NCBI GenBank assembly: GCA_963613725.1
Contig: CAVEAP010000002.1
Span: 1 to 30,641, forward strand
From: [Ruminococcus] torques
GTDB lineage: Bacteria; Bacillota; Clostridia; Christensenellales; UBA1242
Direction of reading: 5' to 3'
Length of the DNA: 30,641 bases
Shown piece after piece: positions 7,178 to 30,573 of this stretch. The notes under the pieces were generated by a model. It was not told the DNA's origin. It ran no database searches and saw nothing but the letters and a program-made list of their open reading frames with translations. How positions within the stretch are numbered: the first letter of the stretch is position 1; each line of letters begins with the position of its first letter. A program made the position numbers and the translations under genes.

Positions 7178-7197
7178 AATTTCATCCTCCTCTAAAA

Positions 7198-8336: not shown

Positions 8337-8385
8337 TGTTAGTTTCAAAAAATGAAAACTAAAATTACATGTTTTTTGTTTTGGT

Positions 8386-8640: not shown

Positions 8641-11600
8641 TCAATAAGTGTTTGAATAAATTGCTTTTCCTGGGATTCCAATAAAGTCGCGAGCAGTGTT
8701 AATGTTAAATCCTTTGGTGTATATTACACAGATTTCTTTTGTATCTGGCGTAATTTGTTTTACTTTTCCAGAAATTGTAGCCCACCCTTTATTTTCATCT
8801 TTTGAAATAGTGGTTGAAACACAATAATCCATGCCCTGGTAATTAACATAATCACCAACTTCATAACTTACACCAGACGAATAAGAATCAATTGCTTTAT
8901 CGTAACCAACAACAATTCTTCCAAAGGTAAGTTTGATTAGTGCGGTGTTGGTCTCTTTCTTTGTAATCTCTGGTATAGTACAAATAATGTAGGCGTTTGT
9001 ATAATTATCACTTCCATATGTTACTCGTGTTGTGTCTTGTTTATAATATGTGCAAGAAACTCCGCCAGTATCATAACCAATGTGCATTCCAACAATTGCT
9101 TGGTAGTTATACAAAAGCTTGTCATTGTTGTAGTAAGCTTTTTCAATAGCTGTTGGAACCTCGTTTATTCCACCATAAAAGTCAGTCATATCACCGCTAA
9201 CAGAAACGCCCATTGGTGTGCCAATTGGCTTTCCTTTGCTATCTGTGGTGTAGGAATCATACAAAATAAATTTCTTGTTATCATCACCATAAATGTAATA
9301 CATGTAAATACTTTTGTAAAATGCTTCTCTATATGCTATTTCATTAAATCCCTCTTCTTCCGTTGTATAATCAGATTTTAAAGGAATTTTTATGCCACCC
9401 CAATGAAGTGTTGGTTTGTTATCTGTGATTTTGGCTTGGTCATCAATTTTAAGTTGCCAAAAGTTTTCAATGCTTGCATAGTTAGAGCCAAAAAGTCCTC
9501 CAACCAAAGTGTCTGCATTGTAAATTTGAGCATTTATAACCGTGTCAAAAACTTTTCCAGTAGCAAAATTAACTCCAGCAACTCCACCAAAATTGTAAGT
9601 GCCAAGATATGTGTCTGTTGCTCCAACCTTCACATAAAGATAGTTAACATAATTTTGACTTGTTCCACCTTCAATCGTTCCACCATTAACTCCAACAAGT
9701 CCTCCAACATTGTGATGACCTTTTATGTTAGTTCTTTTTCCATTAGAATCAGAAGGGAACTTTGGATAGGTTAAGGTTGCGTCCTTTTCATTGTAACCAA
9801 TTGCGCCTCCAACAATTCGGGTTCCACTAATGGTTGGCTGTTTTGATGTGGACTCTTCCACAGTTCCTTGGTTGTCCCCAACAAAACCACCAACTTTGAC
9901 GTCTCCACCAACAGTTCCTTGACTAATGGTGCAAGTTGAAATTTTGGCTTTAGCTTCATTCAAGCCAACAAAACCACCAACGCAAGTTGTTCCTTCGATT
10001 GTTGAAGAGTTCACAGAAATGTTTGTTATTGAGCCAGTGTTTTGTCCTGCAATTCCACCAACATTTTCGGTTCCTTCAACATTTGGGTTTAAAATGGATA
10101 TGGCAGAGTTGTCGCTTCCAATTGTTGATGTGTTTTTCCCTGCAATTCCACCAACATTGGTGGTTCCGTTAACCTTAACTTTGCATAATTCAAAACTGTT
10201 TGTGGTGGTGTCGGTTGCTGAAACAGAAGTGTCTTGACCAGCAGAAGCCGTTTTGATTGGCGCAAATGTTCCGTTGTTTAAGCCAATGATTCCACCAACA
10301 TTTTCTTTTCCTGAAATTTGTATCATAAAGTTATCTTCATTAGAAAATTTGATTGCAGTTGGAATAAATGAGTAATTTTCAGCCAGTGTTCCCACAAGTC
10401 CACCAACATTGGTTTCGCTGTTGTTTATGACAATTGATTGTTCTGACCTTAAAAGTTCAATGTTTCCTGAAATGTTTCCACCAGCATAGCCAACAAGTCC
10501 TCCAACATTGGTGGTTCCGTTGACACTCACAGAACCTTGAGTAACAAAGTTGATTGAGGTGGTGTTTTCAAGCTTTCCAATCACTCCAATGTTTGTAGTT
10601 CCTTTTATGCTAACTGAATCAGTGATTTTTATGTTGATGTTATATTGTTCGTTGCCCTCTTCTTGTCCGCCAACATAAGAACCAACCGCACCCACATTTA
10701 TGTTTCCTTTGAATGTTATGTTTGAAAGTTCCAAACCTGCTTGTGTGTCATTTGTTCCTTTTCCAGTAAATATGTCAACACCAGAATCAAGCTCTGCAAT
10801 TTGGTTTTCGCAATAACCAATTGCACCAACATTTTCGTTTCCTGAAATTGTAAACATAGCCTTTGGTCCTCTTACCTTAACAACTTGAACAAAAGAAGTT
10901 TTGGTGCTTTTTCCAATGATTCCAACATTGTTGCTGGAGGTTTCTGTGTTAAATTTAATGATGTTTGAATCAGATGATTCAGCATTGATGCTTGTGTTGT
11001 TTTTGGTTTCTGTTTCGCCCTCGGTTGTTTTGTCCTCGGTTGTTTCAGGTCCAGTTGCATTTGTTGAAATGTAAATTCCCAAGTTGGAAACCCTTCCCTC
11101 ATTAAGCCCAACAAAACCAATGTTGTCGCCCTTATCAAATGTAAAGGTGTTGTCTGAGTGCGAAAGTCCAACATAAACAGAATCTAAAACAGCATATTGT
11201 CTGTTAACAGACACCAAAATTCCTTGTCCGCTGTTGTCTTCCGATGCTGAATTAAAGGTTACTTTCATTGGTGAGCTTATTTGCTCATTTGATGTTGTTT
11301 TGGAACCTGTTTCGGTTGTGCTGGTTTCATTTGTCAAAGTGTTGCCAGCAGACTCGCCCTCGCCCGAAGAAGTGTTTTTGACTGGGTTTGAGTTAACAAA
11401 AACATCACGAACAATGACATTTGAAATTAGTCCTGAACTTAGTTTTGAAATTGATTCTGAACTTGATTCTGAACTTGATTGTTCTTCTGCTTGAGTGCCT
11501 ATGTTTTCACCCGTGATTAGTCCAAGCAATTTGAATCCTGAAATTGTTACGGAATCAACATGAACAGCATCACTGGTGGCAATAGAAGTGCCTTTAATCA

Positions 11601-14600
11601 CACCTCTGTTTGCTCCAGCAATTCCACCAATGTGGTGGCCTCCTGTTAGGGTTGAATTGTAAATGGAACTTGTTCCAATGGTTGAACAAGAATCATTGTA
11701 GCCAACAAGTCCGCCAACATAACGGTCAGATGTAATGTTCAAATTTTTAACATCATAGCCATAGATGTTAGCCTCTACGTTAGCAGGATTATTTTTTCCA
11801 TAAGAATAGCCAACAAGTCCGCCAACAAAACCTGTTTTTCCGCCCGTAACATCAAAACCTTTTTGTGTAAGTAACTTTTGTGTCTCATCCTCAAGTGCAT
11901 CAAGTGCATAACCGTAGGTCTCAATTGTTGCATTGCTGAAACTTGTTACATAAATGGTTTGTCTGTTGTAGCCAACAATTCCTCCAACATAAAGAGCATT
12001 TCCTGATATTTCCATTTTGTAGTCTTTTCCATCATTGCAATCGTTGTAAATAATTTGTTGTTTGGTGTTGGAATTTCCTTTAACAACACCAATTTGGCGA
12101 AAACTACGTCCAAAAAGTCCGCCCACACTGTTGGCATTTGTTGAGTTGATGTTTATGTTTGTTTCAATAACATATTCCATAACACATTCAAAATCAGTGT
12201 TGTTGTCCCCGCCATTCAGAGTGTCACCGTTAAAACCAATCAAACCACCAACATATTGTGCTTTTGGGTTTTTTATGCTTATGGTTGGATAGGTGTTTTT
12301 GCTGTTTTGGTCTTTTGTGATTGTTATGGCAACTGTTGAGCTACCTGCACCAGTTGTTGCCTTTGCAAATTGTCCCGCAATTCCACCAAGGCTAGTAACA
12401 GAAGATTCGCTTTCATAGTTGATGGTTATGTTGCCATTTACGGTGGTTTGGCTTCCAGTTGAAATTTTGTAGATTCCCGCAATTCCACCCACATTTGTGA
12501 TGGAGTTTTCTGAACTTATTGTAAGGTTAACACTTGCAGTATCTTTTAAGGTTATTCCACCATAAATTGCTCTGATTTCTCCAAAAATTCCACCAACATT
12601 GGCTGCTCTTGCGTTAATTGTTGCCTCAACTTTTTTGCCAATTTCAACTTTTCCTGAACCATTGTTCACTCCAACAACAAAACCAACCGATTTTGCATTT
12701 CCACTAACAGTAACATTTTGAACGCCCACATTATCATCTGGTTTCACTGAATCTATGGGATTCATTGTTATGTTTGCTGTGTTTTGTCCAACAAGCCCAC
12801 CAACAACAACTCCAATTTCGGCATTTGTGGTGGTTTGCTTGTCTGTTTCATTGTCATTAGCACTTGCTTTTGAATTGTTGAATTTAGCAGCATTAACAGA
12901 AATTGAGACATCTTTCACGCCCGATTCGCTGATGCTTCCGTAAACAATTTTGGTGGTGTCATTGACCACAGTGTCGCCCTCTTGAGCAGTTTGTTGAACG
13001 GAGGCTGTTTTGTTGACTGCAACAAATCCGCCAACAAACACTTCTTGCCCACTGCCATTTTTAACATTGATTGTTACATTTGAAACAAAAGTGTTTGTGA
13101 TTTGCGCCAAACTTGAATCGGCAACAATTCCAAGCCGAGCAAAGTTTTCTTTGTTGTCTGCATCAAGCTCATTGCCAAATTTTGCGTTTGCCAAAACATG
13201 TGAAATGTTTACATTTGAAACACTGTTGCCCTCAACATAGCCTGTTGTTGAATCGTTTGAGGTAAACAAAACTGCACTGTTTTTGCTTGCAATAAGACTT
13301 ACATTTGAAATGTTAAGATTTGTTACAGTTCCAGCAAAAACATCAATCATGCTGTCGTTGGTAAGCCCAAAGTTTTCGATTTTGTGAGTTTTGCCATATG
13401 TTGTTATTCCTGTTTCAGCATTTGTTAGCACAACTTGTCCAGTAAGATAAGTTTGTTTTGTGCCATTGTTTTGCCCTGCAAAATATGTTCCAAGGTGTGA
13501 AAGTTCAAGGCCTTCCATGTTAATGTTGCTTGCAATCACAATGTTGTAAGGATGAAACACATTTTTCTCGTTTTCTTGATAGTATTGCACAAGTGCAATG
13601 TATTGCTCTTTTGTTGTGATGTAGATTGTGCCTTTTTTATCTTCTTTGATGTCCCAATCGTCAGAAAGTGTTATGTTGTCTTCAGAATCTGTGTAGTTGT
13701 CGGTGCCAATAATTCCAAACACATCATATTTTGAAGCGTTTTTGTCAAATGCACGCAAAACAAAGGTTCCTGTGCCTGTTTCATCATCAACCTTGCCACT
13801 TTGATGTTTCACATACCAAACATCAATCAAATCTTCAGCACCAAACAAAATATCACAGACATTGCTGTAAGAAACTGTTGTTGTGTCATAAAGCGTTCCA
13901 TTATTGTCAATACGCTGATTGTTTGTAAGACTGTTTTGCAAACTTCCATTTCCAGAATTGAAGAACAATTTTATTACTTTTTCGTTTGGCTTGCAATCTG
14001 CTTTAATGTAAATTTCCTTCAAGGCTCCATTGTTTGTGATTGCAACATAACATGGTGCAGAGTTATTTTTAAAGTTGCTATTTTTAAAGCCTAATTTTTC
14101 AATTGTTCCATGGTTTTCGTCAAACAAAACACCTTGGCTGTTTTGAATGTAAAAACCATTTCCGTTCAAAACACTACCATGTTCACCACCAAAGGTTGCT
14201 GTGCTAACCATATCCTTTCCGGTTAGTTGTGAATAGCTTGTGCTAATTGAAGCATAATCTAGGTCAATGCCCATTTGAACATAAGGATAGGAAATGTTTG
14301 GGTTCTTTGCTGTTTCTTCTTTTTCTTTTTTGGTTTGTTCATCAAGATTTTTGTCATCAATTTTGTCCAAAATTCCTTTGTTTTGTTGCGTTGCCCAAAC
14401 AAAGTGTGAGGCATGCTTAACAACAAATGGACTGCTTTCTGTTCCAATTCCTGTGCTTTGCCCCATGTTTGCAACAATTCCCGGAGTGCAAAGCCCAAAG
14501 TTGTAGCCAATGTTTGCTTGCCAGTTGTAGCCAATGTTTGCTTGCCCAGAGAAATTGTCTGAAAGTGTGTTGTAAAATTCAGTGTCTTTGTTTGCAATTT

Positions 14601-17600
14601 CGGTTGAAGCATAGAACTTTTTTGCACCTGATTGTTTGGCAATTGTGTATTTTTTGTCTTTGCTAATGCTAACACCGTTTTCATCTGTTGGGTTTTCGTT
14701 TTGAAGATTGGTGTCATACCAAAGGTTGCGAGTGCAAGATGAGGCATTAAGTGTTTCAGAAGCCCCAACAATTGATGAAGCCTTTATTTTTTCCCCTTCT
14801 GTCTTTGGACTGTCTCCGCTTTGGTAAATTTTGTAGTCATTTGCACCTTGTTTTACAACCGCAGTTGCCGAAACATAGGAGTTTTCAAGATAAGTTTTTC
14901 CATTGATGTTTTGACCACCAAAGGTGTCTTCATCAGCACAAGAAAGAATTGCTCCTGCAAGTCCGCCCGCAACAAAGTTTCCAACTTGTCCAAAACGAAT
15001 TGTTCCTGTGAAAAAGCTGTTTGAAACGGCATAGATTGTTGGGTTGTCAACTTTTAAGCCTTTTGTGATTGGGTTGAGTTTTGAATTAGAGCCATAGTCA
15101 AATTTGTTTGGATTGCCAATGTCATAGCCTTTTAAAAGCCCCGCAAGTCCACCAACATAAACTGTGCGAGTGCTACCATTGACAGTTCCTCCGTTTGCCC
15201 AAACATCAGCAGAAGAACCACTTGCAACAATTTGCCCAAAGTTTCGCCCCGCAATTCCGCCAATGGCATTGTTTGCGGTTAATGTTCCATTCAAAATGAT
15301 GTTTCCTGACGTTACACAGCCATAAACAATTCCGTGAGCGTCAACTGTTCCAACCAAAATTCCTACACTAACATATTCACCACTTTTGTTGTTTTTAACC
15401 GCAAGTTTTTCATAGTTTGCATTTAGGGCTGTAACAGCAGAACCACGATAGTAACTGAACGAAGTTGTTGTTGCAACTGAGGCGGTGTGAGTTTTGTCGA
15501 TTGATTTAAGCCCACCAAACAAGCCAGCATTTTTAACCGTTCTTCCATAAAGGTCACTTACAATTGCCCCTGTGATTGAATGGCCGTTTCCGTTGTAAAA
15601 ACCAACAAAATTGACATCTGAAATGTCGGTGCCAGTGATGTCGGCGGTTTGAATGTAGTAGGTGTAGGTTTGATTGTCCAAAACTGTTTTAAATTCTTCT
15701 AGGTTTGAAATGGTTTTTGGATTTAATTTTGTTCCTTTTTCTGCGTTCACAACAACTTGTTTGTATTTTTCAATGAAGTTGTAGGTTGGGTTGCCATCTG
15801 CATCTTGCATCACACATTCAACTTTGCTTGGGTCATCAAAAAGTTCAAGATTTAAAATTGGATAACTAAAACTTCCTGTCCAACGAAATACACTAAAACC
15901 ATACATGTTTAAAATTATGTTATCGGTTGAAAGTGCGTGATAGGTGGCATTAAAGGTGGTGTTGCTTTCATTCACTGTTTGTTGTGAAACAAGTGCCACT
16001 TGTTTGTCATAGAAAACATTAACATTATTGCCTTCGTTCAAACTAGGTGCTGAATGACCAAACAAAGCGTTAACATTTTTTAGTGTGGTGTAGTTCATTA
16101 TGCTTGCAACAGATTCAACATATGAAACATTTCCTTCAATCTCTCCCGCAAGTCCGCCGACATATTGACAGTCTTGGCCCATGTTAACCACATTCCAACG
16201 AGTTGTTGTTGAATCAGTTGAATCAAGGGTGTTGATGATGATGTTTGGAGCATTCACAACCTTTGAAAGGTCGGCATTTGCTTTGCCAACAACTCCGCCA
16301 ACATAAAAACCTGAATTTTGTTCAGACACAACATCAACAACAATGTCGCCCAAAACAACAATGTTTGTGAGTGCTGACAAGCTTTCGCTTCTGCCCACAA
16401 TTCCGCCAACATAATGCGTTGTTCCTGCCAACAATTTTGCGTTCATTGTAACATCGGCAACCATGCCATCTAGTGTAACATTTTTCATCATTCCAGCAAT
16501 TCCACCTTGGTTGATGATAGGAACATTATTGTTGGCATTTGGATTGTTTGTTGATGAAATGGTTTCGATGATTCCAGAAAAGAACCCTTGTTTAACCAGC
16601 AAACTTTCTCCTGAATTTGAACTTCCGCTGATGCTTCCAAAAAGTCCACCAGTCATGCCACTTGCTTTAATGTTTTTAAGGTCAAGATAAATGTCGGCAT
16701 CAACAACAAGGTTTTTAAGTTCAACTTCGGTTCCTTTTGTGTCAACACAACTGTTTCCAATGTATTGCCCCACAAGTCCACCAGTGTAAAAATTTGTCTC
16801 GCTAGAGATTTGTGGATAAGGAATAAGGTCAATTTGATTTTTGGCTGAAGTCATTGCAACCGCATTCATTGTAACAGTTTTATGTTCTGAGTCATAGGTG
16901 TAGTATCTGTTGTTAAACAAGAATTGCCCATTGTTGTCAATTTTTGCAATATTTTTTTTGTTTGCTTGTATCTTGTCCCCGTTAACAACACAAGTTGTGC
17001 CATCAATTTCAAAACTGTTTGTGTTTGTGTCAAATTCAATTGTTTTTGTTTTAAATTCATAGGTTACATCATCAATTTCAAAAATGGCGCCCTCAATGTT
17101 AATATTTTTTTGGCTTTCTTCGGAAATTTTCTTGAACAATTTTCCTTGGAAGATAATGTAGGAATCACCGTTAATTTTAACTTCTCCAGAACGGGTGGTG
17201 TCGGTTACGGTGGCACTATCAATTTTTTGTGTGTTGTTTGAATTGTCATTTGTGAAGTAAATCTTTGTGGTGTCAATTCCGTTTTCAACAACATAGTAGG
17301 TTCTTGGGCTTAACACCGCATTGTTAATGTCAAAAAACGAATTGGTCTGCTTAAAGGAAACTTCTGTTGTTGTTCCAGCCGTTGTGATGTAAATAGATTT
17401 TGGCGCTTCGGCAACAAGAGTTATTTTGGTGTTATCTTTTTTGTAAAGTTTTTCGTTAATTTCAAAGTAACTTTCTTTGTTTTGTGAGGAAAGAACAAAA
17501 TCGTTTTCTTTTTTGATTGTGATGTTTCGGATTGTGGTGTCGGTGGCCGTTCCAATCAAAAGACCAAAAGTGTTTGCAGTGCCATTATAGTCATGCCCAG

Positions 17601-23600: not shown

Positions 23601-26600
23601 CTTCTGCAAAAGCATAGTTTTTTACAACCATTTTAAACTTTTGATTTTCGGTTAACTCATAACGATAACTTTGTGAAATTTGGAAAGTGAATGTTTGAAA
23701 AATGCTGTCAACATCAACACTAATCTCACTCATATTGAAGTCATATTTACTTTCAAAACCATCACCCCACGAGATTTTTGTTTTAAATGTTTGATTTTCG
23801 CCCTCAACAGAAATGTATTCTTTTGTTAAAACCTGTTTCCACTCACTCGAACCATCTTCCATCACAAAAAGTGCAAGTTCCACTCCTGTTTGTTTGTCAA
23901 GGTCAGAATCGCTTTCAAGTGTTACATCAAAAACAATTTGTTGTGAAGATTCAATTGTGTCTGGTGCATCTTCTTCTCCACTTCCGCCTTCAATTTTCAA
24001 GTTTTTCACACCTGCATAAACACTTATGTTGTAATTTTGTGCCAAATCAAAATCTAAAACAATTTTGTTTTGATAGTCTGAAAGAACGGTGTTTCCTTGT
24101 GTTTGTGCAAAAATGCCTTTTAAAAATGGAACTGCCATAACTGAAATTTCACCATTTGTAAGATTAAAAGTTGAAACTTCAACATTGCTGGTGTTTTCGG
24201 CATAAAAAACTGCATTGTAAACAAATTGTCCATTTTCTTCAAAAACCCTTGCAAACCAGTAGTCGTTCACATAAAGGTCCAAATGGTCAAAACCAGATTC
24301 TGTTTCAACGTAATTTACTTTTCCACTGGTTCCAAAAATTTCAAGGAACTTTGTTTTTAGGTTTTCAAAAGTTTTGTCCTTAACAGACAAAATTTGTTCC
24401 ATAATTTCAGCACGAGAAAAAATTTGCTCACCAATTTGAATGTTTTTAAAAATGTCTTCACCAATTTTGGCAAATTTTTCATTTACTGCAAAAGCAACTC
24501 CACCGCCAAGATTTCCTGAAGCCGAAAAACCTGTGCTTTCACTGTCTTTTTTGCCATAAAAATGTATATACCAATTTTCGGTGGTGTCTTTTAAGATTGA
24601 CCTTGATGTGCCATTTTTCATTGAATAATCTGCCTGAATTCCATTTTTGGAGGTTTCGGCATCTTCTTTGTCCTTTTCTTCTTGGCTGGAATAAACTTTG
24701 AAAACATCAAAACCTTCAACAACACAAATTTTAAGAACAGCAAAAACAGCACTGTTTTGTCGGCAAGTAACAACAATTGTTTCGGTTCCGTTGCCCTTGA
24801 TTGTGAAACTTAGGTTTTCAAGGTCTGGGTGCAAAATGTTCACAATGCTTCCGTTTGAAAGCACAATTGAAATTGGAATGCTTTCAAGTTTGCCCGAAAG
24901 CGATTGTGGTTCAACAAAAATGCTGACAACATCGGTAAGATTTGTTTCACCTGCAAAAAGTGTTTTGTTAACAATAATTTCGTTTTCCGACACTTTCACA
25001 ATTCCATTTGGCAAAGCATCAAGAACATCAAAGCCCAAATTGGTTGGAATGGTTGGATAGAGTGTTGTGCCATTTTCATCGCACAAAAGAGGGTATTGTT
25101 TGCCCGTTGTGGTGTTTGGCATCACCCATTTGCCATTTTTGTTTTCTTCGTCATAGAATGTAAACCCCCCAAAATTAGATTTGTCTTGCATTTGTGCATC
25201 AGTTAGTGTGGTGGCACCACTGGTGCTTAAAGTTCCATAAAGAACATAGTTGTTTTTATTAACATTCATTGTGCTGTTACCAACCATCTTAAGTGGTTCT
25301 TCGGTTTTCAAAACCGAATAGGAATACTCAATTGAACCCTTGCTGCCTTCAGCAACAAAAAGGCTTGCTTGTTCGCTGTTCCCCTTAATTTGTCCTCGCA
25401 CAAAGCAGTTGCTAATAATTGTTTTATCATCACTTTTTCCAACAAGTCCGCCAACTTTTGTTCCAGCAAGGCTTGCAATCACAAAACTGCTTGAAATGGT
25501 GATTTCCTTTCCCTTTCCAACAAGTCCACCAACACAAATCCCATCAATTTCAGTGATTTCAAAACTGTTTGAAAGTTCAACATAACTGATAACATAACTG
25601 TATGTGATGGTCAACACACTGTTTGACCATGCCATTCCAACAAGCCCACCAACATTGCCCTTATTAGATTTTAGTGCAGAACCTTTTTCAAAAATTTGAT
25701 AAATGCAGTGTGAAAGGCTAACAGTTCCCATTGCTCCACCAACAATTCCGCCAACATTTTGTGCATCACAAAGTTTTACCGCACTCACACAATTTGAAAG
25801 GTTTGCACTTGTTCTTCCAACAATTCCACCAAGATAATTAAGATTCAATGAAGAATCTACATCAATTTTTCCTGCACATTCAATGTTTGAAAGAGTTCCA
25901 GAGCTGTTTCCAACAACCCCACCAAAATTTGAGTCATTTTGCACCGAGTCTTGTTCAACACTAACATTAAGGCTTGAAACTTTGATGTTTTGTGTTTTTT
26001 TGTTGTTCTGACCAATTGCTGAACCAAAATTCACACAAACAGGATTTTTTGACACCTTAAAGCAAGCACTGCTCATCAAAACTTCCAATCCACCAAATTC
26101 ACTAAAACTTTCACCACACTCATTAAGTCCAATAACACCAAAGTTTACGGTAGAATTTTGTGAGCCACCTTTTTCAAAACAAGCCGAAAAAGTTGCACTT
26201 ACGCTGATGTTTTGGAAACTTGAAAACGCATAAACTTTTTGTCCTTGCCCGTTGTTGTAAAGAGCTTCTGCTGTGGTTTTGTCGCTAATCAAAACAAATT
26301 TGTCAGTATCAGTGCCTTCATTTTTGTATCTTCCAACATAGCCATCCACAGTTGTTGGTGTGCATTCGGCATTCTCCGCAAGGTGTCCAATCAAAAGTCC
26401 AACATTTGCTTCTTTAGAAGACACAACAAAGGGATTGTCCACTGTTCCAAAAACGCTTTGGTCAAAACTAAATGCCAAATTTGAAAGTTTTCCCGCAAAC
26501 TCTCCAAAAAATCCAAAAGAGTTTTCGTTTTGTTGAAGTTTTGCATTTTCAAAACTGATTCCATAGATTGTGTAGGTTTGTGTTAACGAAACAATCTTGT

Positions 26601-29600
26601 TTTTCATGTCAAATTGTGTGCCATTAACTGTTAATTGTGTGCCAGTGTATTTGAAAGTGTTGCCATAAATCTCAAATTCATTTTCACTTGAATTGTTTTG
26701 AGAAATTTTTGCAACACGCTTGTTTAGTTTGTCGGAATCAAACACTTGGTCATCACAAATGTAGTAGGTTTTTGAATTCCACTCAAATTCAAGTGTGGTT
26801 TTAAGTTCTGGCATTGAAGTTAAACTTCCTGTGAAGGCGGTGTTACGATTTCCAATTGGCGACCACCCATCGCAAAAACCTGTCATGTCAATGTCGTTCA
26901 TGACGTAGTAGTTTTTGTCCCACAAAGTTGTGTTGTTTGCAATGTTTGCAATGTTTTCGCCATCATAAAGCCTGAAATAAGTTTTGTAGCCATCAGCAAC
27001 CGTAACATGAACAGTTTTCCAACTTAGCGTTTGTGAACCACTCAAAACATCTTGAAGGTCAGAAACGCTTTGTATGTCGCTTTCAAACTTAACAAGACTG
27101 TCTTGTGGCAAAATGTAAACAACAGTTCGCCCAGCCGAAATTGGGGTCACAAAATATTGCCCTGTTGCATAGTCAAACCCAAGCCAAACACTTGAGGATG
27201 AATATTGTTTTACATGTCCTGTTGGTTCCCAATTTTCATTGGCATCAAACAAAATGTAGGAAAGGTTTGAATTGGTTGGAATTTGTGAACCAACATTGCC
27301 CGCTTTTGCATCAATATATTGAACAATTTTGTTTTCAATGTCATCATTGGTGCCATTTTGATTGTTTTTGCTTGCAAGTCTGTCTTCATCTTTTGGTGCA
27401 TGTGCAAGCCCTGTGGTTGTTTCAAAGTAAATTCCCTCGGTTTCATCATAGTTGTTTAGGTTAACACTTCCAACAAGGTTAGATTGTGTTACCAAAATTT
27501 TAAATGTTACTGAATAAGAAATTCCATTGGCATCTTCAATTTTTGCAACAACACTGAAAGTGGCACTGGTTGAAGCGGGTTGTGAAGCACTGACAGTTAC
27601 ATAACTTCCATAAAAACTTGAATCAACCTGACCTTTGCCATCGGTGGCACTGTTTGTGATTTCAATTTCAAGTCCCATCTCATGTGAGCCCAAAGATTTT
27701 TTTGAATCTGTCAAAATATACCATTCAACATCTTTCGCTTGCACTGTGGAATCATTTGGGTTAAGGTTAATCGAAAGTTTTTGAGTTGATTGGTTTTTTC
27801 TGTAAACAAACTTTGAACTGTCGGTTCCAGAAGTGGTTTCTTTGCTGTAATAAAGCGTTAATTCTTCTTCTTGCAAAAAGCCATCTCCAATTCCAAATTT
27901 TGAAATTGCAACATAAACAGTTAGCTCAAAGAAAACTTTTTGAGTTTCGGTTTTAAACTCTTTTTTGTCCTCATCAAAAACAGAATATTCAAAACTTACG
28001 CAAACAATTTCTGTTCCGTTTGCTTTTGTTCTCAAAATTATTGTGCGGTCCAAAACATTTGCATCAAAATCGGCAAACTCTGGAGAATCTTCTGTTTCAG
28101 TGTAGTCATTTGTGTCTTTGTTGTAGGTTGCTTTTGTGATTGTTACGTTTGAAAGTCCTGCATCCTCCGGATAAATGTTCACATCAAAAATTGCTTGGTC
28201 GCCCTTTTTGATTTTCATCCAACTAAGGCTTTCTCCTTTGGCTTCTTGTTCTCGGTCGCCATGCAAAACATTTGCACTTGTGTTGTTGTTAACTGTTAAA
28301 GTTGCTTTTTCCATTATCATAAAAGTTTTTACATCAAAAGAAAAACTTACGCCGTTGATGGAAATTATGGTAACAACCGCTTCACCACTTCCATTTTGCA
28401 TGGTTCCCTCTGGGGTGATGTTAAATTCAACAGTTTTGTCGGTATTTCCATACATAGTTCCTGTTGACACAATTTTTGCATTGCTTGAAGTTGCAGTCAA
28501 ATAGCTTGCAAGTTCTTTGGAATCAATCAAATCGGTTGACTCAAAAGGTGTTACCTTAAGTTTTATGGTTTTTGACTGTTTTATCATTTCGCCACCAGCA
28601 TTTGAAATTGTTAATGGAACATAGCCGTCATATTGAAAAACACTGGTGTCAAGTTCAATGTTTGTGATTCCCGAACTTAACTTAACCAAAACTTCACGCT
28701 CAACGCTTTGGCTTTGTGCTGAATTTTTTGCCCGCACAACAAGTGGCAAGTAGCCAAGTTTGTCGCCCTCAAACGAAAGCACAAGTTTGGTGCCACTTTC
28801 AAACTCCAATGTTTGCCAAGTGTTTTCATCAATCAACTTGTAGGATTTTTTGCTTGTGGTGTCATAGATGCTAAGTTGTTCGGCAAGAGCGCCAACATTT
28901 GGATATTTTTCTTGTTTTGTCATGTCAAAAGCAAGTTCAAATGTTCCATAGCCCTCTGAAAAGTCCAAAAGCTCAACAAAAAAGTTGGCACCATCAATGC
29001 CTTCGGCATATTCACTGAACACAACAAGGTTGTAAGGGGTTTTGTCATAAATTGGAGTTGTTCCTGGTGTGATTGTTTTTGAACTTATCAAAGAAGCCCA
29101 GTTGTCTTTGGTAATCAAAGCATAAGAATAGTAACTGCTGTTTCCCTCTCGATAGTAATGCCCATAATATGATTCGGGTGCGGAACTAGCTGGCTTGCTT
29201 TCGGTGTATTCTTGAGAAACTTGGTTAAGCCAAATTTCTTTTGCATATTTTAAGATTTTTACGTTTAAAGTTTTGGTTACAACAGGAGAATTTAAAATTC
29301 CATCATATGCCATTTCAATTTTAACAGTTGTTTCGCCAGATTCAAGCCCAACAAGTTCAAATTTGTTTGCATCTTCTGAATCACGCTTTTCAAGTTTTTT
29401 GTTGTCATAAACAAATTCAAAGTTCAAAAGCGTAAGGTCAAAATCACTGTCAATTTCAAGGCTTGCTTTGTTGTCTGATTCGGTGTGATTGTTCACAAGG
29501 GTTAGTTTTGTGATTCCACGAACATAAATTTGTGTTTCTCCAACTTCAATTCCCATGTTTTTAAGATTATCTTCTGTTACTAAAACATAGGAATTTCCTT

Positions 29601-30474
29601 GGGATATGTAAAAACCAACATAGCCATCTAATGTACTTGGAAGATTGTCTTGCACCTCATAGGAAGTTATGTCATTTTGGTTCAAAATGCGAAATCCGTT
29701 TGCTTCAAGATTTGGCAAAATTTTAATGCGAAATTTCTTTTTGAATGCTTCATTTGTTGGATTGTTTTTTTGATATGTTGAAATTTCAATGACACCACCT
29801 TTGTCATCTTCTTCCAAATATTCATAAAAATCACCATTTTGATATTCTTTTTCGCCAACGCAATAAACAATGTCGGGCATAACAGAACCTGTTGGCCCAA
29901 ACTTGAACAAAATGTCGGTGGAAAACTGAAATTTAGCACCTTTGATGATTGCCATGTTGGTGATTTGGTCAAAAGTTTGGTTGCTTTCAACTTCAACCGC
30001 ATTTGAATAGGCCATGGTGCTTGCCACTTGGTCAACTTTCACAAACACTTTCAGCGTTTTTGTGTTGTCCTCTTTTGCCATCAATGTAACATAGGAACTT
30101 TTGTTGCTTGAAGTTGGTGCTGACGCCGTGATTTTTACTCGTGTTTTTTGAGTAAGGCTGTCAAACACTGTGTCAACAGCAACAGCATTTCCGCTTGATG
30201 AAGCCACAACGCTTCGGTCAACCGAATTGTCCCCTCCTGTTACTTTCACAAAAAAAGTTGCAATGGCCTTTTCCGTTAAATTTCCACTGCTGTCTTTTTC
30301 GTAAACAAGCGAAAGGTTGTAATCTCCGTTTTCATCCAAAGTTACAACTTCATTTTCTTCAATTTCAATTTTCATGCCTTTTCGTGAATCGCCACACGCA
30401 GAAAAAGCAAAGCAGGCAACAAAGCCCACAAAAAGCAAAATCCAAACAATTTGCCAAATCTTTGATTTCGTCAT
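8641..30474 (-). CDS. Giant (7277 aa) predicted surface lipoprotein/adhesin with Ig-like domains and GLUG-motif beta-helix blocks
   Basis: 21,834-bp open frame. Signal peptide with lipobox FSA|C27. Dozens of (V/I)GG(L/I)(V/A)GxN GLUG-type motifs. Repeated YxLxxD(I/L)D...FxG.(F)DGNGHTI caps. Big_2-like segments. AGGAG RBS at 30481-30485. Confidence 0.92.
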   Translation of the reverse strand: MTKSKIWQIVWILLFVGFVACFAFSACGDSRKGMKIEIEENEVVTLDENGDYNLSLVYEKDSSGNLTEKAIATFFVKVTGGDNSVDRSVVASSSGNAVAVDTVFDSLTQKTRVKITASAPTSSNKSSYVTLMAKEDNTKTLKVFVKVDQVASTMAYSNAVEVESNQTFDQITNMAIIKGAKFQFSTDILFKFGPTGSVMPDIVYCVGEKEYQNGDFYEYLEEDDKGGVIEISTYQKNNPTNEAFKKKFRIKILPNLEANGFRILNQNDITSYEVQDNLPSTLDGYVGFYISQGNSYVLVTEDNLKNMGIEVGETQIYVRGITKLTLVNNHTESDNKASLEIDSDFDLTLLNFEFVYDNKKLEKRDSEDANKFELVGLESGETTVKIEMAYDGILNSPVVTKTLNVKILKYAKEIWLNQVSQEYTESKPASSAPESYYGHYYREGNSSYYSYALITKDNWASLISSKTITPGTTPIYDKTPYNLVVFSEYAEGIDGANFFVELLDFSEGYGTFELAFDMTKQEKYPNVGALAEQLSIYDTTSKKSYKLIDENTWQTLEFESGTKLVLSFEGDKLGYLPLVVRAKNSAQSQSVEREVLVKLSSGITNIELDTSVFQYDGYVPLTISNAGGEMIKQSKTIKLKVTPFESTDLIDSKELASYLTATSSNAKIVSTGTMYGNTDKTVEFNITPEGTMQNGSGEAVVTIISINGVSFSFDVKTFMIMEKATLTVNNNTSANVLHGDREQEAKGESLSWMKIKKGDQAIFDVNIYPEDAGLSNVTITKATYNKDTNDYTETEDSPEFADFDANVLDRTIILRTKANGTEIVCVSFEYSVFDEDKKEFKTETQKVFFELTVYVAISKFGIGDGFLQEEELTLYYSKETTSGTDSSKFVYRKNQSTQKLSINLNPNDSTVQAKDVEWYILTDSKKSLGSHEMGLEIEITNSATDGKGQVDSSFYGSYVTVSASQPASTSATFSVVAKIEDANGISYSVTFKILVTQSNLVGSVNLNNYDETEGIYFETTTGLAHAPKDEDRLASKNNQNGTNDDIENKIVQYIDAKAGNVGSQIPTNSNLSYILFDANENWEPTGHVKQYSSSSVWLGFDYATGQYFVTPISAGRTVVYILPQDSLVKFESDIQSVSDLQDVLSGSQTLSWKTVHVTVADGYKTYFRLYDGENIANIANNTTLWDKNYYVMNDIDMTGFCDGWSPIGNRNTAFTGSLTSMPELKTTLEFEWNSKTYYICDDQVFDSDKLNKRVAKISQNNSSENEFEIYGNTFKYTGTQLTVNGTQFDMKNKIVSLTQTYTIYGISFENAKLQQNENSFGFFGEFAGKLSNLAFSFDQSVFGTVDNPFVVSSKEANVGLLIGHLAENAECTPTTVDGYVGRYKNEGTDTDKFVLISDKTTAEALYNNGQGQKVYAFSSFQNISVSATFSACFEKGGSQNSTVNFGVIGLNECGESFSEFGGLEVLMSSACFKVSKNPVCVNFGSAIGQNNKKTQNIKVSSLNVSVEQDSVQNDSNFGGVVGNSSGTLSNIECAGKIDVDSSLNLNYLGGIVGRTSANLSNCVSAVKLCDAQNVGGIVGGAMGTVSLSHCIYQIFEKGSALKSNKGNVGGLVGMAWSNSVLTITYSYVISYVELSNSFEITEIDGICVGGLVGKGKEITISSSFVIASLAGTKVGGLVGKSDDKTIISNCFVRGQIKGNSEQASLFVAEGSKGSIEYSYSVLKTEEPLKMVGNSTMNVNKNNYVLYGTLSTSGATTLTDAQMQDKSNFGGFTFYDEENKNGKWVMPNTTTGKQYPLLCDENGTTLYPTIPTNLGFDVLDALPNGIVKVSENEIIVNKTLFAGETNLTDVVSIFVEPQSLSGKLESIPISIVLSNGSIVNILHPDLENLSFTIKGNGTETIVVTCRQNSAVFAVLKICVVEGFDVFKVYSSQEEKDKEDAETSKNGIQADYSMKNGTSRSILKDTTENWYIHFYGKKDSESTGFSASGNLGGGVAFAVNEKFAKIGEDIFKNIQIGEQIFSRAEIMEQILSVKDKTFENLKTKFLEIFGTSGKVNYVETESGFDHLDLYVNDYWFARVFEENGQFVYNAVFYAENTSNVEVSTFNLTNGEISVMAVPFLKGIFAQTQGNTVLSDYQNKIVLDFDLAQNYNISVYAGVKNLKIEGGSGEEDAPDTIESSQQIVFDVTLESDSDLDKQTGVELALFVMEDGSSEWKQVLTKEYISVEGENQTFKTKISWGDGFESKYDFNMSEISVDVDSIFQTFTFQISQSYRYELTENQKFKMVVKNYAFAEGIKTITKTIWFDVEPQSLTDDPELAHFADAELTANEGTNVGGILRNAGSNPTNKIIAGEYGLLRVSLSPDYAMFDRVEITSDVQNNDIISFQQRVASYVEEKGQNVTNYYLYESGVTPITNGIVASRVSNCIYNDKTNSFDKVWFDGNLYFQTLIASTTVSAKKFTIHVAVYFRDKLVRENSLEISVVSNFNLQWSYDTIMTSDKNSVVPTAYVAIGTGGAKAQPTSAELEANPSLVNWQNTQNVFSLKKTGVFQNVSSAKIDSVLDANGKKLSNEASAKFLEKVKLEPKSSGSGLDEYYLNVQGFSNDSADAENFFENYLGYTITLTVSGFKYDENNIKLTIHRSINVVLVDFVLQNGAFYVKYGTDTTLSDDATPNSIDLPYFKNAFYKIEVGIDKTKVIGNLDFVGRKIDEFVNILNLSPTTDANFSLQNFVSTKLNSEKNVFYAKQMWFIQKDSTENSFFQAEKTSNDGIVFGVKTSLSDLKENSETNNASIVDNFYSMYALLFESSQTSTERGYYIHPTNRTTGTESLSLCLDGVQFVYEKGQFTLQNTTFFQLKANLQEGYIDGNSVTIPEASNTFSVPSISFNLTFSQQTSVDSPIPIYDETGFLNDLEEGKHYRLMADLDFSDITKYPTYTPLDVAFASFDGNGHTITLSENFNTTAVSSNEGSETNPANFGLFKKIYAGSVVKNLTLVCKTVTADLSAFQYANFGVLAGTNLGSIYNCEVKNFEKEGQNTTTNGVVNVKTSSSLNSSTYVGGLVGQNLEGSLADSLNNVGQISNSRIQNLNLVATGTALSNNFGSAVLGGFVGQNNGHIASSFVDWGIVQNNSILISIAMTGGFVGINEGTIMTSHVGTGYVVEFGGTQTTKVTQTLKSNVNAGGFVVLNDGDISDCFSAVDMTENVSEELAVSSEAVSGGFVCKNDSSGTITRSYSVSHLPKNNQAHTPFVGPNKQNDFQSLNNLNANGITESAFLDLDFGKASVKLTEDMGIMNYKIEHFINKNNRNMDAWEYFGVSRNNEADSKVLLEITNNWVFANSDTNQFFNTKNILGQDLIDAENRKYGSDNTPTISILGPQLVSAHLVASEGWQTATYSTQEAKYIYEGRLNGNQTEITYKANIVGESLVVGPRVISSAEELYYNLVDDYNDGYIVDDWYRLVSNIDLNDLVEKGLDISIFGTRTFAGRIEGNGFKINSIDLSARKDVETPIETLGKKYSTFGLFGQILTKQDENDNFVGQTYASITNLELGVIAVRASLVNYVGALAGYANNVVVSGVTLTAKNTSNVHVIGRNMVGGLFGKLVGKSQVFNVTSDLSVSAVFGNSESNTYTYNRDLLNLYGYSSEDGSPQIDKDIIKLSTFSDISLCYAGGILGVCDLTPFGKELLVLSHSYFSEVKLTSLKVTGTSKTVGTIAGGVVGLLGASSQASDLWKVTEDGAYIKGSRFAGGVVGENHGALNYARITYKQEIQDVVDASTYVGAVSSSERFSSFQGSSYAIGGVVGFNIGIANGSQAGTIKNSYSKVRVVNTLAKIAGGIVGVAVGGQFDSNFATGSVLSSATGTTGGAFGGILTFNDEELKKVLTSPFSTIKNNQFTIKISNNGMDTSYTIVLKHGSGGAPTEAIVNNKSYAINANKLELTVNGVMSTYYYYTLKQPTTQDDNSALLSQCFIYDDAVYTSTQAIENQIKREGNTNHYATKINQWSYAGMTYQVARINRIVAKNNWSFEDYSKLSNIQSNGHLGGFIGRTTQNTSDYPLEYSNLLGVSGHTSIKSDAVYNEENFKTGKVKQSGEKNFYVSKVFASQQNITSSSETTTALTLALVGESEASSVLVSQNNGSYVEYVDLASGLTRNSMYNFSYNKSKTYDRMFEVWSIYDYGTQINENSTRLSDYKITNYDAYGMPIYDPIVGFTKIQITTTDEWLAMNENPDADYQLMNDLDFSGVDYTSIGREGTVFTGSLTGLVEDEEGNQIVNTIYNIDIKGEHNGLWGTTNGAVIENLNVVGITGHDYNGTANTFGLLIGTATDTTIRNITIKKENDFVLSSQNKESYFEINEKLYKKDNTKITLVAEAPKSIYITTAGTTTEVSFKQTNSFFDINNAVLSPRTYYVVENGIDTTKIYFTNDNSNNTQKIDSATVTDTTRSGEVKINGDSYIIFQGKLFKKISEESQKNINIEGAIFEIDDVTYEFKTKTIEFDTNTNSFEIDGTTCVVNGDKIQANKKNIAKIDNNGQFLFNNRYYTYDSEHKTVTMNAVAMTSAKNQIDLIPYPQISSETNFYTGGLVGQYIGNSCVDTKGTEVELKNLVVDADIYLDLKNIKASGMTGGLFGSISGSSNSGESLLVKQGFFSGIIETISSTNNPNANNNVPIINQGGIAGMMKNVTLDGMVADVTMNAKLLAGTTHYVGGIVGRSESLSALTNIVVLGDIVVDVVSEQNSGFYVGGVVGKANADLSKVVNAPNIIINTLDSTDSTTTRWNVVNMGQDCQYVGGLAGEIEGNVSYVESVASIMNYTTLKNVNALFGHSAPSLNEGNNVNVFYDKQVALVSQQTVNESNTTFNATYHALSTDNIILNMYGFSVFRWTGSFSYPILNLELFDDPSKVECVMQDADGNPTYNFIEKYKQVVVNAEKGTKLNPKTISNLEEFKTVLDNQTYTYYIQTADITGTDISDVNFVGFYNGNGHSITGAIVSDLYGRTVKNAGLFGGLKSIDKTHTASVATTTSFSYYRGSAVTALNANYEKLAVKNNKSGEYVSVGILVGTVDAHGIVYGCVTSGNIILNGTLTANNAIGGIAGRNFGQIVASGSSADVWANGGTVNGSTRTVYVGGLAGLLKGYDIGNPNKFDYGSNSKLNPITKGLKVDNPTIYAVSNSFFTGTIRFGQVGNFVAGGLAGAILSCADEDTFGGQNINGKTYLENSYVSATAVVKQGANDYKIYQSGDSPKTEGEKIKASSIVGASETLNASSCTRNLWYDTNLQNENPTDENGVSISKDKKYTIAKQSGAKKFYASTEIANKDTEFYNTLSDNFSGQANIGYNWQANIGYNFGLCTPGIVANMGQSTGIGTESSPFVVKHASHFVWATQQNKGILDKIDDKNLDEQTKKEKEETAKNPNISYPYVQMGIDLDYASISTSYSQLTGKDMVSTATFGGEHGSVLNGNGFYIQNSQGVLFDENHGTIEKLGFKNSNFKNNSAPCYVAITNNGALKEIYIKADCKPNEKVIKLFFNSGNGSLQNSLTNNQRIDNNGTLYDTTTVSYSNVCDILFGAEDLIDVWYVKHQSGKVDDETGTGTFVLRAFDKNASKYDVFGIIGTDNYTDSEDNITLSDDWDIKEDKKGTIYITTKEQYIALVQYYQENEKNVFHPYNIVIASNINMEGLELSHLGTYFAGQNNGTKQTYLTGQVVLTNAETGITTYGKTHKIENFGLTNDSMIDVFAGTVTNLNISNVSLIASKNSAVLFTSNDSTTGYVEGNSVSNVNISHVLANAKFGNELDADNKENFARLGIVADSSLAQITNTFVSNVTINVKNGSGQEVFVGGFVAVNKTASVQQTAQEGDTVVNDTTKIVYGSISESGVKDVSISVNAAKFNNSKASANDNETDKQTTTNAEIGVVVGGLVGQNTANITMNPIDSVKPDDNVGVQNVTVSGNAKSVGFVVGVNNGSGKVEIGKKVEATINARAANVGGIFGEIRAIYGGITLKDTASVNLTISSENSITNVGGIAGIYKISTGSQTTVNGNITINYESESSVTSLGGIAGQFAKATTGAGSSTVAITITKDQNSKNTYPTISIKNPKAQYVGGLIGFNGDTLNGGDNNTDFECVMEYVIETNININSTNANSVGGLFGRSFRQIGVVKGNSNTKQQIIYNDCNDGKDYKMEISGNALYVGGIVGYNRQTIYVTSFSNATIETYGYALDALEDETQKLLTQKGFDVTGGKTGFVGGLVGYSYGKNNPANVEANIYGYDVKNLNITSDRYVGGLVGYNDSCSTIGTSSIYNSTLTGGHHIGGIAGANRGVIKGTSIATSDAVHVDSVTISGFKLLGLITGENIGTQAEEQSSSESSSESISKLSSGLISNVIVRDVFVNSNPVKNTSSGEGESAGNTLTNETSTTETGSKTTSNEQISSPMKVTFNSASEDNSGQGILVSVNRQYAVLDSVYVGLSHSDNTFTFDKGDNIGFVGLNEGRVSNLGIYISTNATGPETTEDKTTEGETETKNNTSINAESSDSNIIKFNTETSSNNVGIIGKSTKTSFVQVVKVRGPKAMFTISGNENVGAIGYCENQIAELDSGVDIFTGKGTNDTQAGLELSNITFKGNINVGAVGSYVGGQEEGNEQYNINIKITDSVSIKGTTNIGVIGKLENTTSINFVTQGSVSVNGTTNVGGLVGYAGGNISGNIELLRSEQSIVINNSETNVGGLVGTLAENYSFIPTAIKFSNEDNFMIQISGKENVGGIIGLNNGTFAPIKTASAGQDTSVSATDTTTNSFELCKVKVNGTTNVGGIAGKNTSTIGSDNSAISILNPNVEGTENVGGIAGQNTGSITNISVNSSTIEGTTCVGGFVGLNEAKAKISTCTISQGTVGGDVKVGGFVGDNQGTVEESTSKQPTISGTRIVGGAIGYNEKDATLTYPKFPSDSNGKRTNIKGHHNVGGLVGVNGGTIEGGTSQNYVNYLYVKVGATDTYLGTYNFGGVAGVNFATGKVFDTVINAQIYNADTLVGGLFGSNYASIENFWQLKIDDQAKITDNKPTLHWGGIKIPLKSDYTTEEEGFNEIAYREAFYKSIYMYYIYGDDNKKFILYDSYTTDSKGKPIGTPMGVSVSGDMTDFYGGINEVPTAIEKAYYNNDKLLYNYQAIVGMHIGYDTGGVSCTYYKQDTTRVTYGSDNYTNAYIICTIPEITKKETNTALIKLTFGRIVVGYDKAIDSYSSGVSYEVGDYVNYQGMDYCVSTTISKDENKGWATISGKVKQITPDTKEICVIYTKGFNINTARDFIGIPGKAIYSNTY
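11451..11480. repeat. In-frame 12-bp tandem repeat (2.5 copies) within the giant gene
   Basis: TTGATTCTGAAC x2 plus TTGATT, encoding QSSSESSSES. Confidence 0.8.
14499..14546. repeat. Perfect in-frame 24-bp tandem duplication within the giant gene
   Basis: AGTTGTAGCCAATGTTTGCTTGCC x2, encoding GQANIGYNWQANIGYNF. Confidence 0.92.
30394..30474 (-). other. Lipoprotein (SPase II) signal peptide
   Basis: MTKSK basic n-region, hydrophobic IWQIVWILLFVGFVACFA, lipobox F-S-A-C followed by G-D-S. Confidence 0.8.
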
Positions 30475-30573
30475 AAAAAACTCCTACTTTTTAGTTTGCA
30501 AAACTTTTTTGGTTTTATGTTAAAGTTAAAGCAATTTTGCCACAGCAAAACAAAAAACCCAGTTTTCATCTAA

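What the first reader, a model, noticed from the sequence alone, without database searches (positions are those of the whole stretch)
8641..30474. A 7277-aa lipid-anchored beta-helix/Ig mega-protein as a stand-alone 22-kb transcription unit
Seen: an intact 21.8-kb ORF with its own promoter, RBS and terminator, an N-terminal lipobox, no LPXTG, SLH or autotransporter end, and no neighbouring secretion gene. The layout is an Ig-like stalk (~aa 30-1170), a beta-helix block, a second Ig-like region (~aa 1820-2890), then about six further beta-helix blocks. Known: GLUG motifs occur in IgA1-protease/Zmp (M26) N-terminal regions and in haemagglutinin-like surface proteins. Most giant Firmicute adhesins are wall-anchored at the C-terminus and made of near-identical repeats. 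Inference: this is a membrane-tethered filament of roughly 0.8 MDa with its C-terminus distal, used for contact with host, substrate or other cells. Its repeats are highly diverged, so it is not a recent expansion.
Basis: partly seen in the sequence, partly recalled or inferred. Interest (0 to 1): 0.8.

Follow-up and report, generated by a model that had tools for sequence, protein, structure and literature searches.

The report
Giant lipid-anchored surface fibre, glycan tip
An intact 22-kb gene in a tiny-genome, uncultured Clostridia bacterium encodes a 7,277-residue protein predicted to be a membrane-anchored surface fibre with a sugar-binding-like module at its far end, and it likely helps these probably partner-dependent bacteria hold on to other cells or surfaces.

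Summary
The gene is real. It is an intact 7,277-aa ORF (789 kDa) with lipobox, RBS and a sigma-A-type promoter shared by relatives. An independent 7,280-aa copy aligns end to end at 66% identity, and dN/dS is below 1 throughout, so it is no chimera. Models show tandem Ig-like domains and beta-helices like the non-catalytic domain of M26 IgA1 proteases (Z 25); there is no HExxH. It is not a one-off: 147 of 201 genomes of its ~1-Mb-genome family (probably UBA1242) carry relatives, mostly 3,000-8,400 aa and usually two paralogues; other families of the order match only short pieces. This scan found the family before in at least nine genomes. New here: a CBM5/12-like (chitin/GlcNAc-type) module in the variable C-terminal cap, with another inserted elsewhere in a congener's orthologue. 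The family almost lacks sortase and type IV pilus motors, which explains the lipid anchor, and keeps a core VirB4. Best reading: a vegetative attachment fibre with a fast-changing tip (0.6). Binding, partner and expression are untested. Known building blocks; family not found in print.

The parts
8641..30474 (-). Giant lipoprotein gene, 7277 aa
   Evidence: end-to-end relative P0002
30574..30603 (-). Sigma-A-type promoter TTGACT-18-TATAAT with extended -10 TG
   Evidence: 11-12 of 12 matches upstream of 12 of 17 stand-alone or first-of-pair genes, 0 of 6 second-of-pair genes
30481..30485 (-). Ribosome-binding site AGGAG, 6 nt before ATG
   Evidence: sequence
30394..30474 (-). Lipoprotein signal peptide aa 1-26 and lipobox Cys27
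   Evidence: Lgt, LspA and SecA in the genome
26998..30393 (-). Stalk 1, aa 28-1159: about eight or nine tandem Ig-like domains (predicted)
25105..26997 (-). Beta-helix module M1, aa 1160-1790
   Evidence: Glug 37.2 bits, cut-off 20.5
21823..25104 (-). Stalk 2, aa 1791-2884: Ig-like domains with low-confidence helical inserts (aa 2250-2884 modelled)
20224..21822 (-). Beta-helix module M2, aa 2885-3417; with M3 the most conserved part
   Evidence: (Z 25.4 to 7uvk)
17887..20223 (-). Beta-helix module M3, aa 3418-4196
15754..17886 (-). Beta-helix module M4, aa 4197-4907, with a ~200-aa insert
14443..15753 (-). Beta-helix module M5, aa 4908-5344
13573..14442 (-). Degenerate module M6, aa 5345-5634 (cap motif, no GGxxG repeat)
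   Evidence: (E 3e-3)
9448..13572 (-). Long distal beta-helix M7, aa 5635-7009, 20 GLUG-type repeats, fast-evolving
8644..9447 (-). C-terminal cap aa 7010-7277, no known family apart from its insert
8779..8883 (-). CBM5/12-like insert in the cap (just below Pfam cut-off)
8297..8337 (.). 16-bp hairpin, candidate bidirectional terminator
   Evidence: missed by the terminator scan, loop of 9
7294..7788 (+). DUF1256 gene, conserved convergent downstream neighbour
6506..7207 (-). CvpA-family gene, conserved neighbour

Best explanation
The gene encodes a 7,277-residue protein with a lipoprotein signal, predicted to be lipid-anchored in the membrane and to form a long, non-enzymatic fibre of Ig-like domains and beta-helices whose variable outer end likely binds glycans on a partner cell or gut surface. 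Shown: intact ORF, promoter, RBS, lipobox, Lgt/LspA/SecA in the genome, module layout, conservation gradient, CBM5/12-like insert. Predicted: Ig and beta-helix folds. Inferred steps: (1) sigma-A transcription in vegetative cells; (2) Sec export, Lgt lipidation and LspA cleavage at Cys27; (3) the Ig stalks lift the rod through the peptidoglycan; (4) seven beta-helices extend it to roughly 100-150 nm (my estimate from recalled domain sizes); (5) the distal helix and cap, here with a chitin/GlcNAc-type module, set what is bound; (6) in a lineage without sortase or type IV pili this fibre and its paralogue supply the attachment that a lipid-, nucleotide- and amino-acid-dependent cell would need, possibly ahead of its core VirB4 system.
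For: Lipobox in 24 of 24 relatives examined and in 11 of 11 database relatives P0002-P0012. Lgt, LspA, SecA present. Stalk 1 model pLDDT 77.6, nearly all beta, with Ig-type matches to SbsC/Sap, Big_2, FdeC and intimin at Z 8-9. M2 matches the IgA1-protease NTD2 and 3n6z at Z 21.6-25.4 against 15.3 or less for lyases and tailspikes. No HExxH (72); the conserved columns are mostly Gly/Asn/Ser/aromatic. Against P0002, identity is 96% in aa 1-200, 78-90% in aa 2801-3800 and 26-57% beyond aa 5800. Against G128, dN rises from 0.29-0.32 (M2, M3) to 0.53-0.76 (M6 to cap) while dS stays 0.85-1.32. The C-termini of eight orthologues printed differ. CBM5/12-like module: Pfam 25.0 bits; PDB 4ny2, E 2.4e-5; 15 of the 16 best cap hits scanned carry CBM_5_12 above cut-off; 3 of the 5 family-wide CBM matches in 151 genomes lie in this gene, one over cut-off at a different position. 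Family: sortase 1 of 101 over cut-off, pilus/T2SS ATPase 2 of 81, ketoacyl synthase 1 of 81, MraY-type 39 of 41, VirB4 193 of 201. PMC12306168 (whole text read) proposes a partner-dependent life for UBA1242.
Against: No binding, localisation or expression data. A shared fold shows no function, and the IgA1P NTD2 is a gate, not an adhesin (PMC9637739, passages). The CBM hit is below Pfam's cut-off in the window protein (25.0 vs 26.2), P0002 (17.3) and G128 (21.3), and is missing from the C-termini of 22 other giants, so it is not the family's general mechanism. 54 of 201 family genomes lack a strong match; five near-complete ones hold only weak partial hits although their genera keep VirB4 (45), so the fibre is not essential to the whole family's lifestyle. 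dN/dS never exceeds 1 (124): relaxed constraint explains the gradient as well as diversifying selection. The partner-dependent lifestyle is itself inferred from genomes. Five of seven modules and the cap were not modelled.
Confidence: 0.6

Rival explanations
1. Structural or protective coat: the giant lipoproteins form a mesh or brush around the cell (S-layer substitute, shield against phage, antibodies or enzymes), and the outer end varies because it is exposed.
For: Best Ig matches include S-layer proteins SbsC, Sap, EA1 and SbsB. A near-consensus promoter suggests high constitutive output. No SLH domain found in the genome. 13.5% of the assembly lies in 11 ORFs of 2000 aa or more.
Against: The S-layer matches are generic Ig folds at Z 8-9, tied with adhesins. 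Length varies from 3,000 to 8,400 aa among relatives. Repeated recruitment of a CBM-like module points to binding.
Confidence: 0.2
2. Accessory of the core VirB4 (conjugation-type) system: a mating-pair adhesin like PrgB, or part of the contact apparatus.
For: VirB4 with a Mbov_0396/MMCAP2_0566-type membrane protein is in the genome and in 193 of 201 family genomes. The top Foldseek hit of the stalk-2 model is the PrgB Ig domains, E 1e-7.
Against: The genes are on different contigs here, and about 19 kb apart in G010 and G104. VirB4 is kept in genera that lack the giant. The PrgB match has TM 0.09-0.14.
Confidence: 0.1
3. Tethered multi-domain depolymerase: the beta-helices cleave capsule, mucin or wall glycans to reach a host or free nutrients, like phage tailspikes.
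For: Pectate-lyase-type and tailspike beta-helices score Z 10-15. CBM5/12 modules often accompany enzymes.
Against: Much closer match to non-catalytic NTD2-type helices. No conserved acidic or basic cluster apart from cap-motif residues in the M2 alignments. No enzyme family hit. UBA1242 reportedly lack sugar transporters (PMC12306168).
Confidence: 0.08
4. Assembly artefact or chimera.
For: Short-read-type assembly of 136 contigs; the exact protein is on record from one contig only.
Against: Independent 7,280-aa P0002 on a 24.8-kb contig aligns end to end. Collinear 4,900-7,000-aa orthologues, with DUF1256/CvpA downstream in four relatives. Codon usage is native in all eight segments, r 0.88-0.97.
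Confidence: 0.01

Closest known systems
NTD2 beta-helix of M26 IgA1 metalloproteases (Gemella 7uvk, S. pneumoniae 7jgj) and Bacteroides BACOVA_03286 (3n6z); Pfam Glug PF07581, Peptidase_M26_N PF05342
   Same: Capped right-handed beta-helix, Z 21.6-25.4, rmsd 3.0-5.4, 268-286 residues aligned; GLUG motifs over cut-off in four segments; nearest Atlas cluster is of this kind (weak recognition).
   Different: Seven diverged copies in series with Ig stalks; no protease domain, no HExxH; lipid anchor instead of LPxTG.
Tandem bacterial Ig-like surface proteins (S-layer SbsC/Sap/EA1, intimin/FdeC, LigA, PrgB)
   Same: Tandem Ig-like beta-sandwiches in both stalks.
   Different: No Pfam Big-family hit; no SLH, beta-barrel or LPxTG anchor; stalks alternate with beta-helices.
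CBM5/12 chitin-binding modules (PF02839; e.g. Vibrio-type chitin oligosaccharide deacetylase 4ny2)
   Same: YxxGDxVxYxG core, E 2.4e-5 to 4ny2.
   Different: Single copy inserted in an unknown cap; below the Pfam cut-off; the first Trp of the motif is Tyr in this copy (seen).
Giant surface proteins of host-dependent bacteria (Omnitrophota; Clostridia examples in bioRxiv 2023.11.21.568195)
   Same: Very large surface proteins in small, dependent cells.
   Different: Those carry many TM segments and SecA-like domains, or RCC1/Listeria-Bacteroides repeats; the text has no occurrence of GLUG, lipoprotein or Christensenellales (abstract passage and term search).

Membership tests
Bacterial lipoprotein (Sec/SPII) | Basic N-region, hydrophobic h-region, lipobox ending in Cys | tested here: met
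   MTKSK..., hydropathy peak 2.56, FSA-C27; conserved in 24 of 24 relatives. SignalP itself was not available.
Bacterial lipoprotein (Sec/SPII) | Lgt and LspA in the genome | tested here: met
Bacterial lipoprotein (Sec/SPII) | Lipid actually attached | not testable with these tools
   needs mass spectrometry or labelling
GLUG / M26-NTD beta-helix domain | GLUG motif over the Pfam cut-off | tested here: met
   24-43 bits vs 20.5 in 4 of 18 segments scanned
GLUG / M26-NTD beta-helix domain | Capped right-handed beta-helix fold | tested here: met
   M2 model, Z 25.4 to 7uvk; other modules not modelled
M26 IgA1/Zmp metalloprotease | HExxH zinc motif and M26 catalytic region | tested here: not met
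   no HExxH; no Peptidase_M26_C hit
Sortase-anchored giant adhesin | C-terminal LPxTG, TM segment, basic tail; sortase in the genome | tested here: not met
   sortase not found in this 94%-complete genome, 1 of 101 over cut-off in the family
Filamentous haemagglutinin / autotransporter | TPS domain or beta-barrel translocator | tested here: not met
   no such Pfam or NCBIfam hit
S-layer protein | SLH or other wall-binding domain | tested here: not met
   no SLH hit on the protein or in the genome
S-layer protein | Self-assembly into a 2D lattice | not testable with these tools
   needs electron microscopy
CBM5/12 | Pfam PF02839 over cut-off 26.2 | tested here: inconclusive
   25.0-25.8 bits here; 32.3 bits in the G004 orthologue at another position
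CBM5/12 | Binds chitin or GlcNAc polymers | not testable with these tools
   needs a binding assay
Beta-helix polysaccharide lyase/hydrolase | Conserved catalytic acidic/basic residues in a groove | tested here: inconclusive
   none evident among conserved columns of M2 and the start of M3; other modules not examined; Z 15 or less
GTDB family UBA1242 (host organism) | Phylogenetic placement | tested here: inconclusive
   Family is unnamed by the tools; ~1-Mb genomes, homologue records named Christensenella sp./Clostridia/Christensenellales, Spo0A and no fatty-acid synthase fit PMC12306168

The most novel reading that the evidence does not exclude
UBA1242-type Clostridia are spore-forming epibionts inside the Bacillota that converged on the Patescibacteria plan: a domesticated VirB4 system plus, in place of type IV pili, a pair of 0.3-0.9-MDa lipid-anchored grappling fibres whose exchangeable tips choose the host. 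In this genus the tip has twice recruited a chitin/GlcNAc-type module, pointing to a chitin- or GlcNAc-coated partner such as a gut fungus or protist.
Probability: 0.2. Interest if true: 0.85.

Novelty: new variant of a known kind. Interest (0 to 1): 0.57.

Why it matters
This family of ~1-Mb-genome, uncultured gut Clostridia is thought to depend on other cells, and neither partner nor contact mechanism is known. A protein that takes 2.5% of the assembly, is kept under purifying selection in most of the family and varies at its outer end is a direct handle: its 268-aa cap or the CBM-like insert can be expressed and used as bait to find the partner, which could allow culture. It also shows that a walled monoderm without sortase can apparently display a 0.8-MDa protein by a lipid anchor alone. 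The folds are known and the scan has met the family repeatedly, which limits the surprise.

Tried and rejected
Sequencing runs: none was listed, so no reads could be laid; no RNA holder listed. PDB sequence search with the M2-M3 profile: 0 hits. NCBIfam: no hit on the protein. Atlas search with the cap: no usable hit. Foldseek on both long models was dominated by Ig arrays with TM under 0.2; VIA-align was more informative. A profile of a hairpin repeat from the G004 C-terminus found no copies in the window protein, so my idea that the window's inserts are that repeat is unsupported. The careful tree did not finish; only the quick tree (26 rows) is used, and its deep forks are open. No contig end overlaps this contig's right end, so upstream context is unknown. 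Positive selection over whole regions: not seen. A second, C-terminal membrane anchor, reported by earlier notes for other members: not present here. Pfam DUF3576, InlJ_IG, Rota_NSP3 and Tail_spike_N hits are below cut-off and rejected. Supplements of PMC12306168 could not be read; its genome list might settle the family name. No complex prediction was run, as no binding pair is claimed. Literature searches that found no description of this family.

Full report
Observation. The ORF at 8641..30474 (-) is intact: 7277 aa, 788.5 kDa, pI 4.8, rich in Gly, Ser, Asn and Thr. It starts with a hydrophobic signal ending in FSA-C27. No other segment reaches hydropathy 1.9, and there is no LPxTG or HExxH. 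AGGAG lies 6 nt before the ATG. A promoter TTGACT-18-TATAAT with TG lies at 30603-30574. The terminator scan found nothing downstream; a 16-bp hairpin at 8297-8337 is the best candidate. The contig ends 167 nt upstream and overlaps no other contig.

Is it real? The exact protein is on record once. An independent 7280-aa protein, P0002, from a 24.8-kb contig aligns end to end at 66%. Collinear orthologues of 4,900-7,000 aa were read from ten relatives' contigs (one is cut by its contig). DUF1256 and CvpA lie downstream in G061, G004, G070 and G128, as in the window. Codon usage matches the genome in all eight segments (r 0.88-0.97). Against G128, dN/dS is about 0.27-0.58 in all eleven regions, against 0.24-0.26 for two neighbours. 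The chimera reading is rejected. No sequencing run was listed.

Anatomy. An AlphaFold2 model of aa 28-1200 (24 sequences, pLDDT 77.6, pTM 0.40) is a chain of beta-sandwiches. Foldseek returns Ig arrays at low TM-score. VIA-align gives Z 8-9 to SbsC, Sap, Big_2, FdeC and intimin domains, a level that shows an Ig-type fold and no more. A model of aa 2250-3440 (32 sequences, pLDDT 75.5) shows further Ig-like domains with uncertain helical inserts, then a capped beta-helix. That helix matches the NTD2 of IgA1 proteases and 3n6z at Z 25.4, 22.4 and 21.6; lyases and tailspikes score 15.3 or less. In IgA1 proteases this domain is a gate beside the catalytic domains (PMC9637739, passages). An iterated cap profile finds six module starts, one weak, and I place a seventh by eye near aa 5635. 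The modules are too diverged for blastp and mostly for phmmer, so the repeats are old. GLUG motifs pass the Pfam cut-off in 4 of 18 segments scanned. M1, M3-M7, aa 1200-2250 and the cap were not modelled.

The tip. Residues 7010-7277 have no relative among 1.84 billion representatives except through a ~40-residue insert (28 hits besides the protein itself). 15 of the 16 best of these carry CBM_5_12 over cut-off. The insert scores 25.0 bits against a cut-off of 26.2 and matches the chitin deacetylase entry 4ny2 at E 2.4e-5. It is also in P0002 (17.3 bits) and G128. The cap was found in 2 of 13 genus genomes. In 151 family genomes CBM_5_12 matched five times, three of them in this gene; in G004 it passes the cut-off but sits at aa 4068, aligned to window aa ~3950, so it was likely gained separately. 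The last 400-600 residues of 22 other giants show GLUG repeats, once Flg_new_2, or nothing, never this CBM. Identity falls towards the tip: 96% (aa 1-200), 78-90% (aa 2801-3800) and 26-57% (beyond aa 5800) against P0002. Against G128, dN doubles distally while dS is flat; relaxed constraint and diversifying selection cannot be told apart.

Distribution. The single M2-M3 sequence matched 96 of 151 family genomes. A 15-sequence profile matched 147 of 201 at E 1e-30 or better, in 46 of 58 genera, usually two genes, mostly in open frames of 3,000-8,400 aa. In an order-wide sample all 14 family members scored E 2e-86 or better; 66 of 287 other genomes had only partial matches, best E 7e-22. The profile was built from family members, so this shows family-specific sequence, not that other families lack analogous giants; a few have 6,000-7,400-aa frames with one matching module. 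Five well-assembled family genomes without a strong match hold only weak pieces in 770-2,100-aa frames. All 24 relatives examined have a lipobox. The two paralogues are tandem in G044, G083, G025, G027, G109, G134 and G115. In a quick tree of 26 rows the window protein groups with the downstream gene of the G044 pair (support 98), and the genome's other paralogue (contig C14, probably with C46) with the upstream gene (99); deeper forks are open. Promoters of 11-12 of 12 precede 12 of 17 stand-alone or first-of-pair genes and 0 of 6 second genes.

The organism. The assembly is 887 kb, 94% complete; 11 ORFs of 2,000 aa or more make 13.5% of it. It has Lgt, LspA and SecA. Sortase, pilus ATPase, ketoacyl synthase and SLH were not found. 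Family-wide: sortase 1 of 101 over cut-off, pilus/T2SS ATPase 2 of 81, ketoacyl synthase 1 of 81, MraY-type 39 of 41. So these are walled cells for which lipidation is the main anchor left, which removes much of the oddity of a lipid-anchored giant. A VirB4-like ATPase next to a mycoplasma-ICE-type membrane protein is in 193 of 201 genomes and 58 of 58 genera. A similar fixed system is described for Patescibacteria (bioRxiv 2025.01.22.634366, abstract). Homologue records are named Christensenella sp., Clostridia or Christensenellales bacterium. The family name is inferred, not shown.

Mechanism and rivals. Most likely (0.6) the protein is exported by Sec, lipidated at Cys27, lifted through the wall by its Ig stalks and extended by beta-helices, with the distal helix and cap binding glycans on a partner or surface. 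The length estimate of 100-150 nm rests on recalled domain sizes. Rivals: protective or structural coat (0.2), accessory of the VirB4 system (0.1), tethered depolymerase (0.08), artefact (0.01). Against the best reading: no functional data, a sub-threshold and genus-limited CBM, and about a quarter of the family lacking the gene.

Novelty. The domains are known; the protein is no M26 protease, sortase substrate, autotransporter or SLH protein. I found no paper on this family (term searches in two giant-protein surveys gave no GLUG or lipoprotein); subscription journals are mostly not covered. This scan reported the same family in at least nine other genomes with the same adhesin reading; those notes are not independent evidence. 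What this member adds is the CBM-like tip, the lack of a second membrane anchor, the promoter pattern and the sortase/pilus/VirB4 census. Verdict: real, a new variant of a known kind, interest 0.57.

Noticed in passing
L043:1713-6862 (G000 contig C12): VirB4-like ATPase (best NCBIfam: Mbov_0397 ICE type, below cut-off) with an upstream Mbov_0396/MMCAP2_0566-type membrane protein; the ATPase is found in 193 of 201 family genomes, 58 of 58 genera, mostly once: a conjugation-type system fixed in the core genome, as in Patescibacteria. The copy here is about 100 aa shorter than in relatives, with a 155-aa frame following: frameshift or assembly error.
   Followed up: partly
L045:7424-10249 (G000 contig C10): Companion protein of ~930-985 aa with an N-terminal hydrophobic segment and two beta-helix modules; lies just downstream of the giant in G044, G021 and G135, in the ribosomal-protein region here.
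   Followed up: partly
L044 and L050 (G000 contigs C14, C46): Pieces of the second giant paralogue, at least 3,120 and 2,177 aa, both cut by contig ends.
   Followed up: partly
L046, L047, L048, L049, L051, L052, L053: Further giant ORFs (>6,578, >4,827, >3,122, 2,954, >2,818, 2,406, >2,377, 2,157 aa), nearly all without Pfam or NCBIfam hits; 13.5% of the assembly is in ORFs of 2,000 aa or more.
   Followed up: no
window 7790-8240: Dispersed palindromic repeat (REP-like by my recall) matching 22 contigs of the genome; absent at this spot in G128. The 96-aa ORF at 7793-8083 is probably spurious.
   Followed up: partly
G000 contig C4: A run of ORFs that looks like phage portal and tail genes by eye (recalled, not tested).
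   Followed up: no
window 5105-6325 (-), 997-1710 (+), 1938-2639 (-): A 406-aa protein and two membrane proteins with no Pfam hit over cut-off.
   Followed up: no
family genera g24, g2, g3, g11, g22, g26 and others: Genera without the giant pair mostly have the most distant VirB4 (41-46% identity), suggesting a separate subclade: a natural contrast group.
   Followed up: partly
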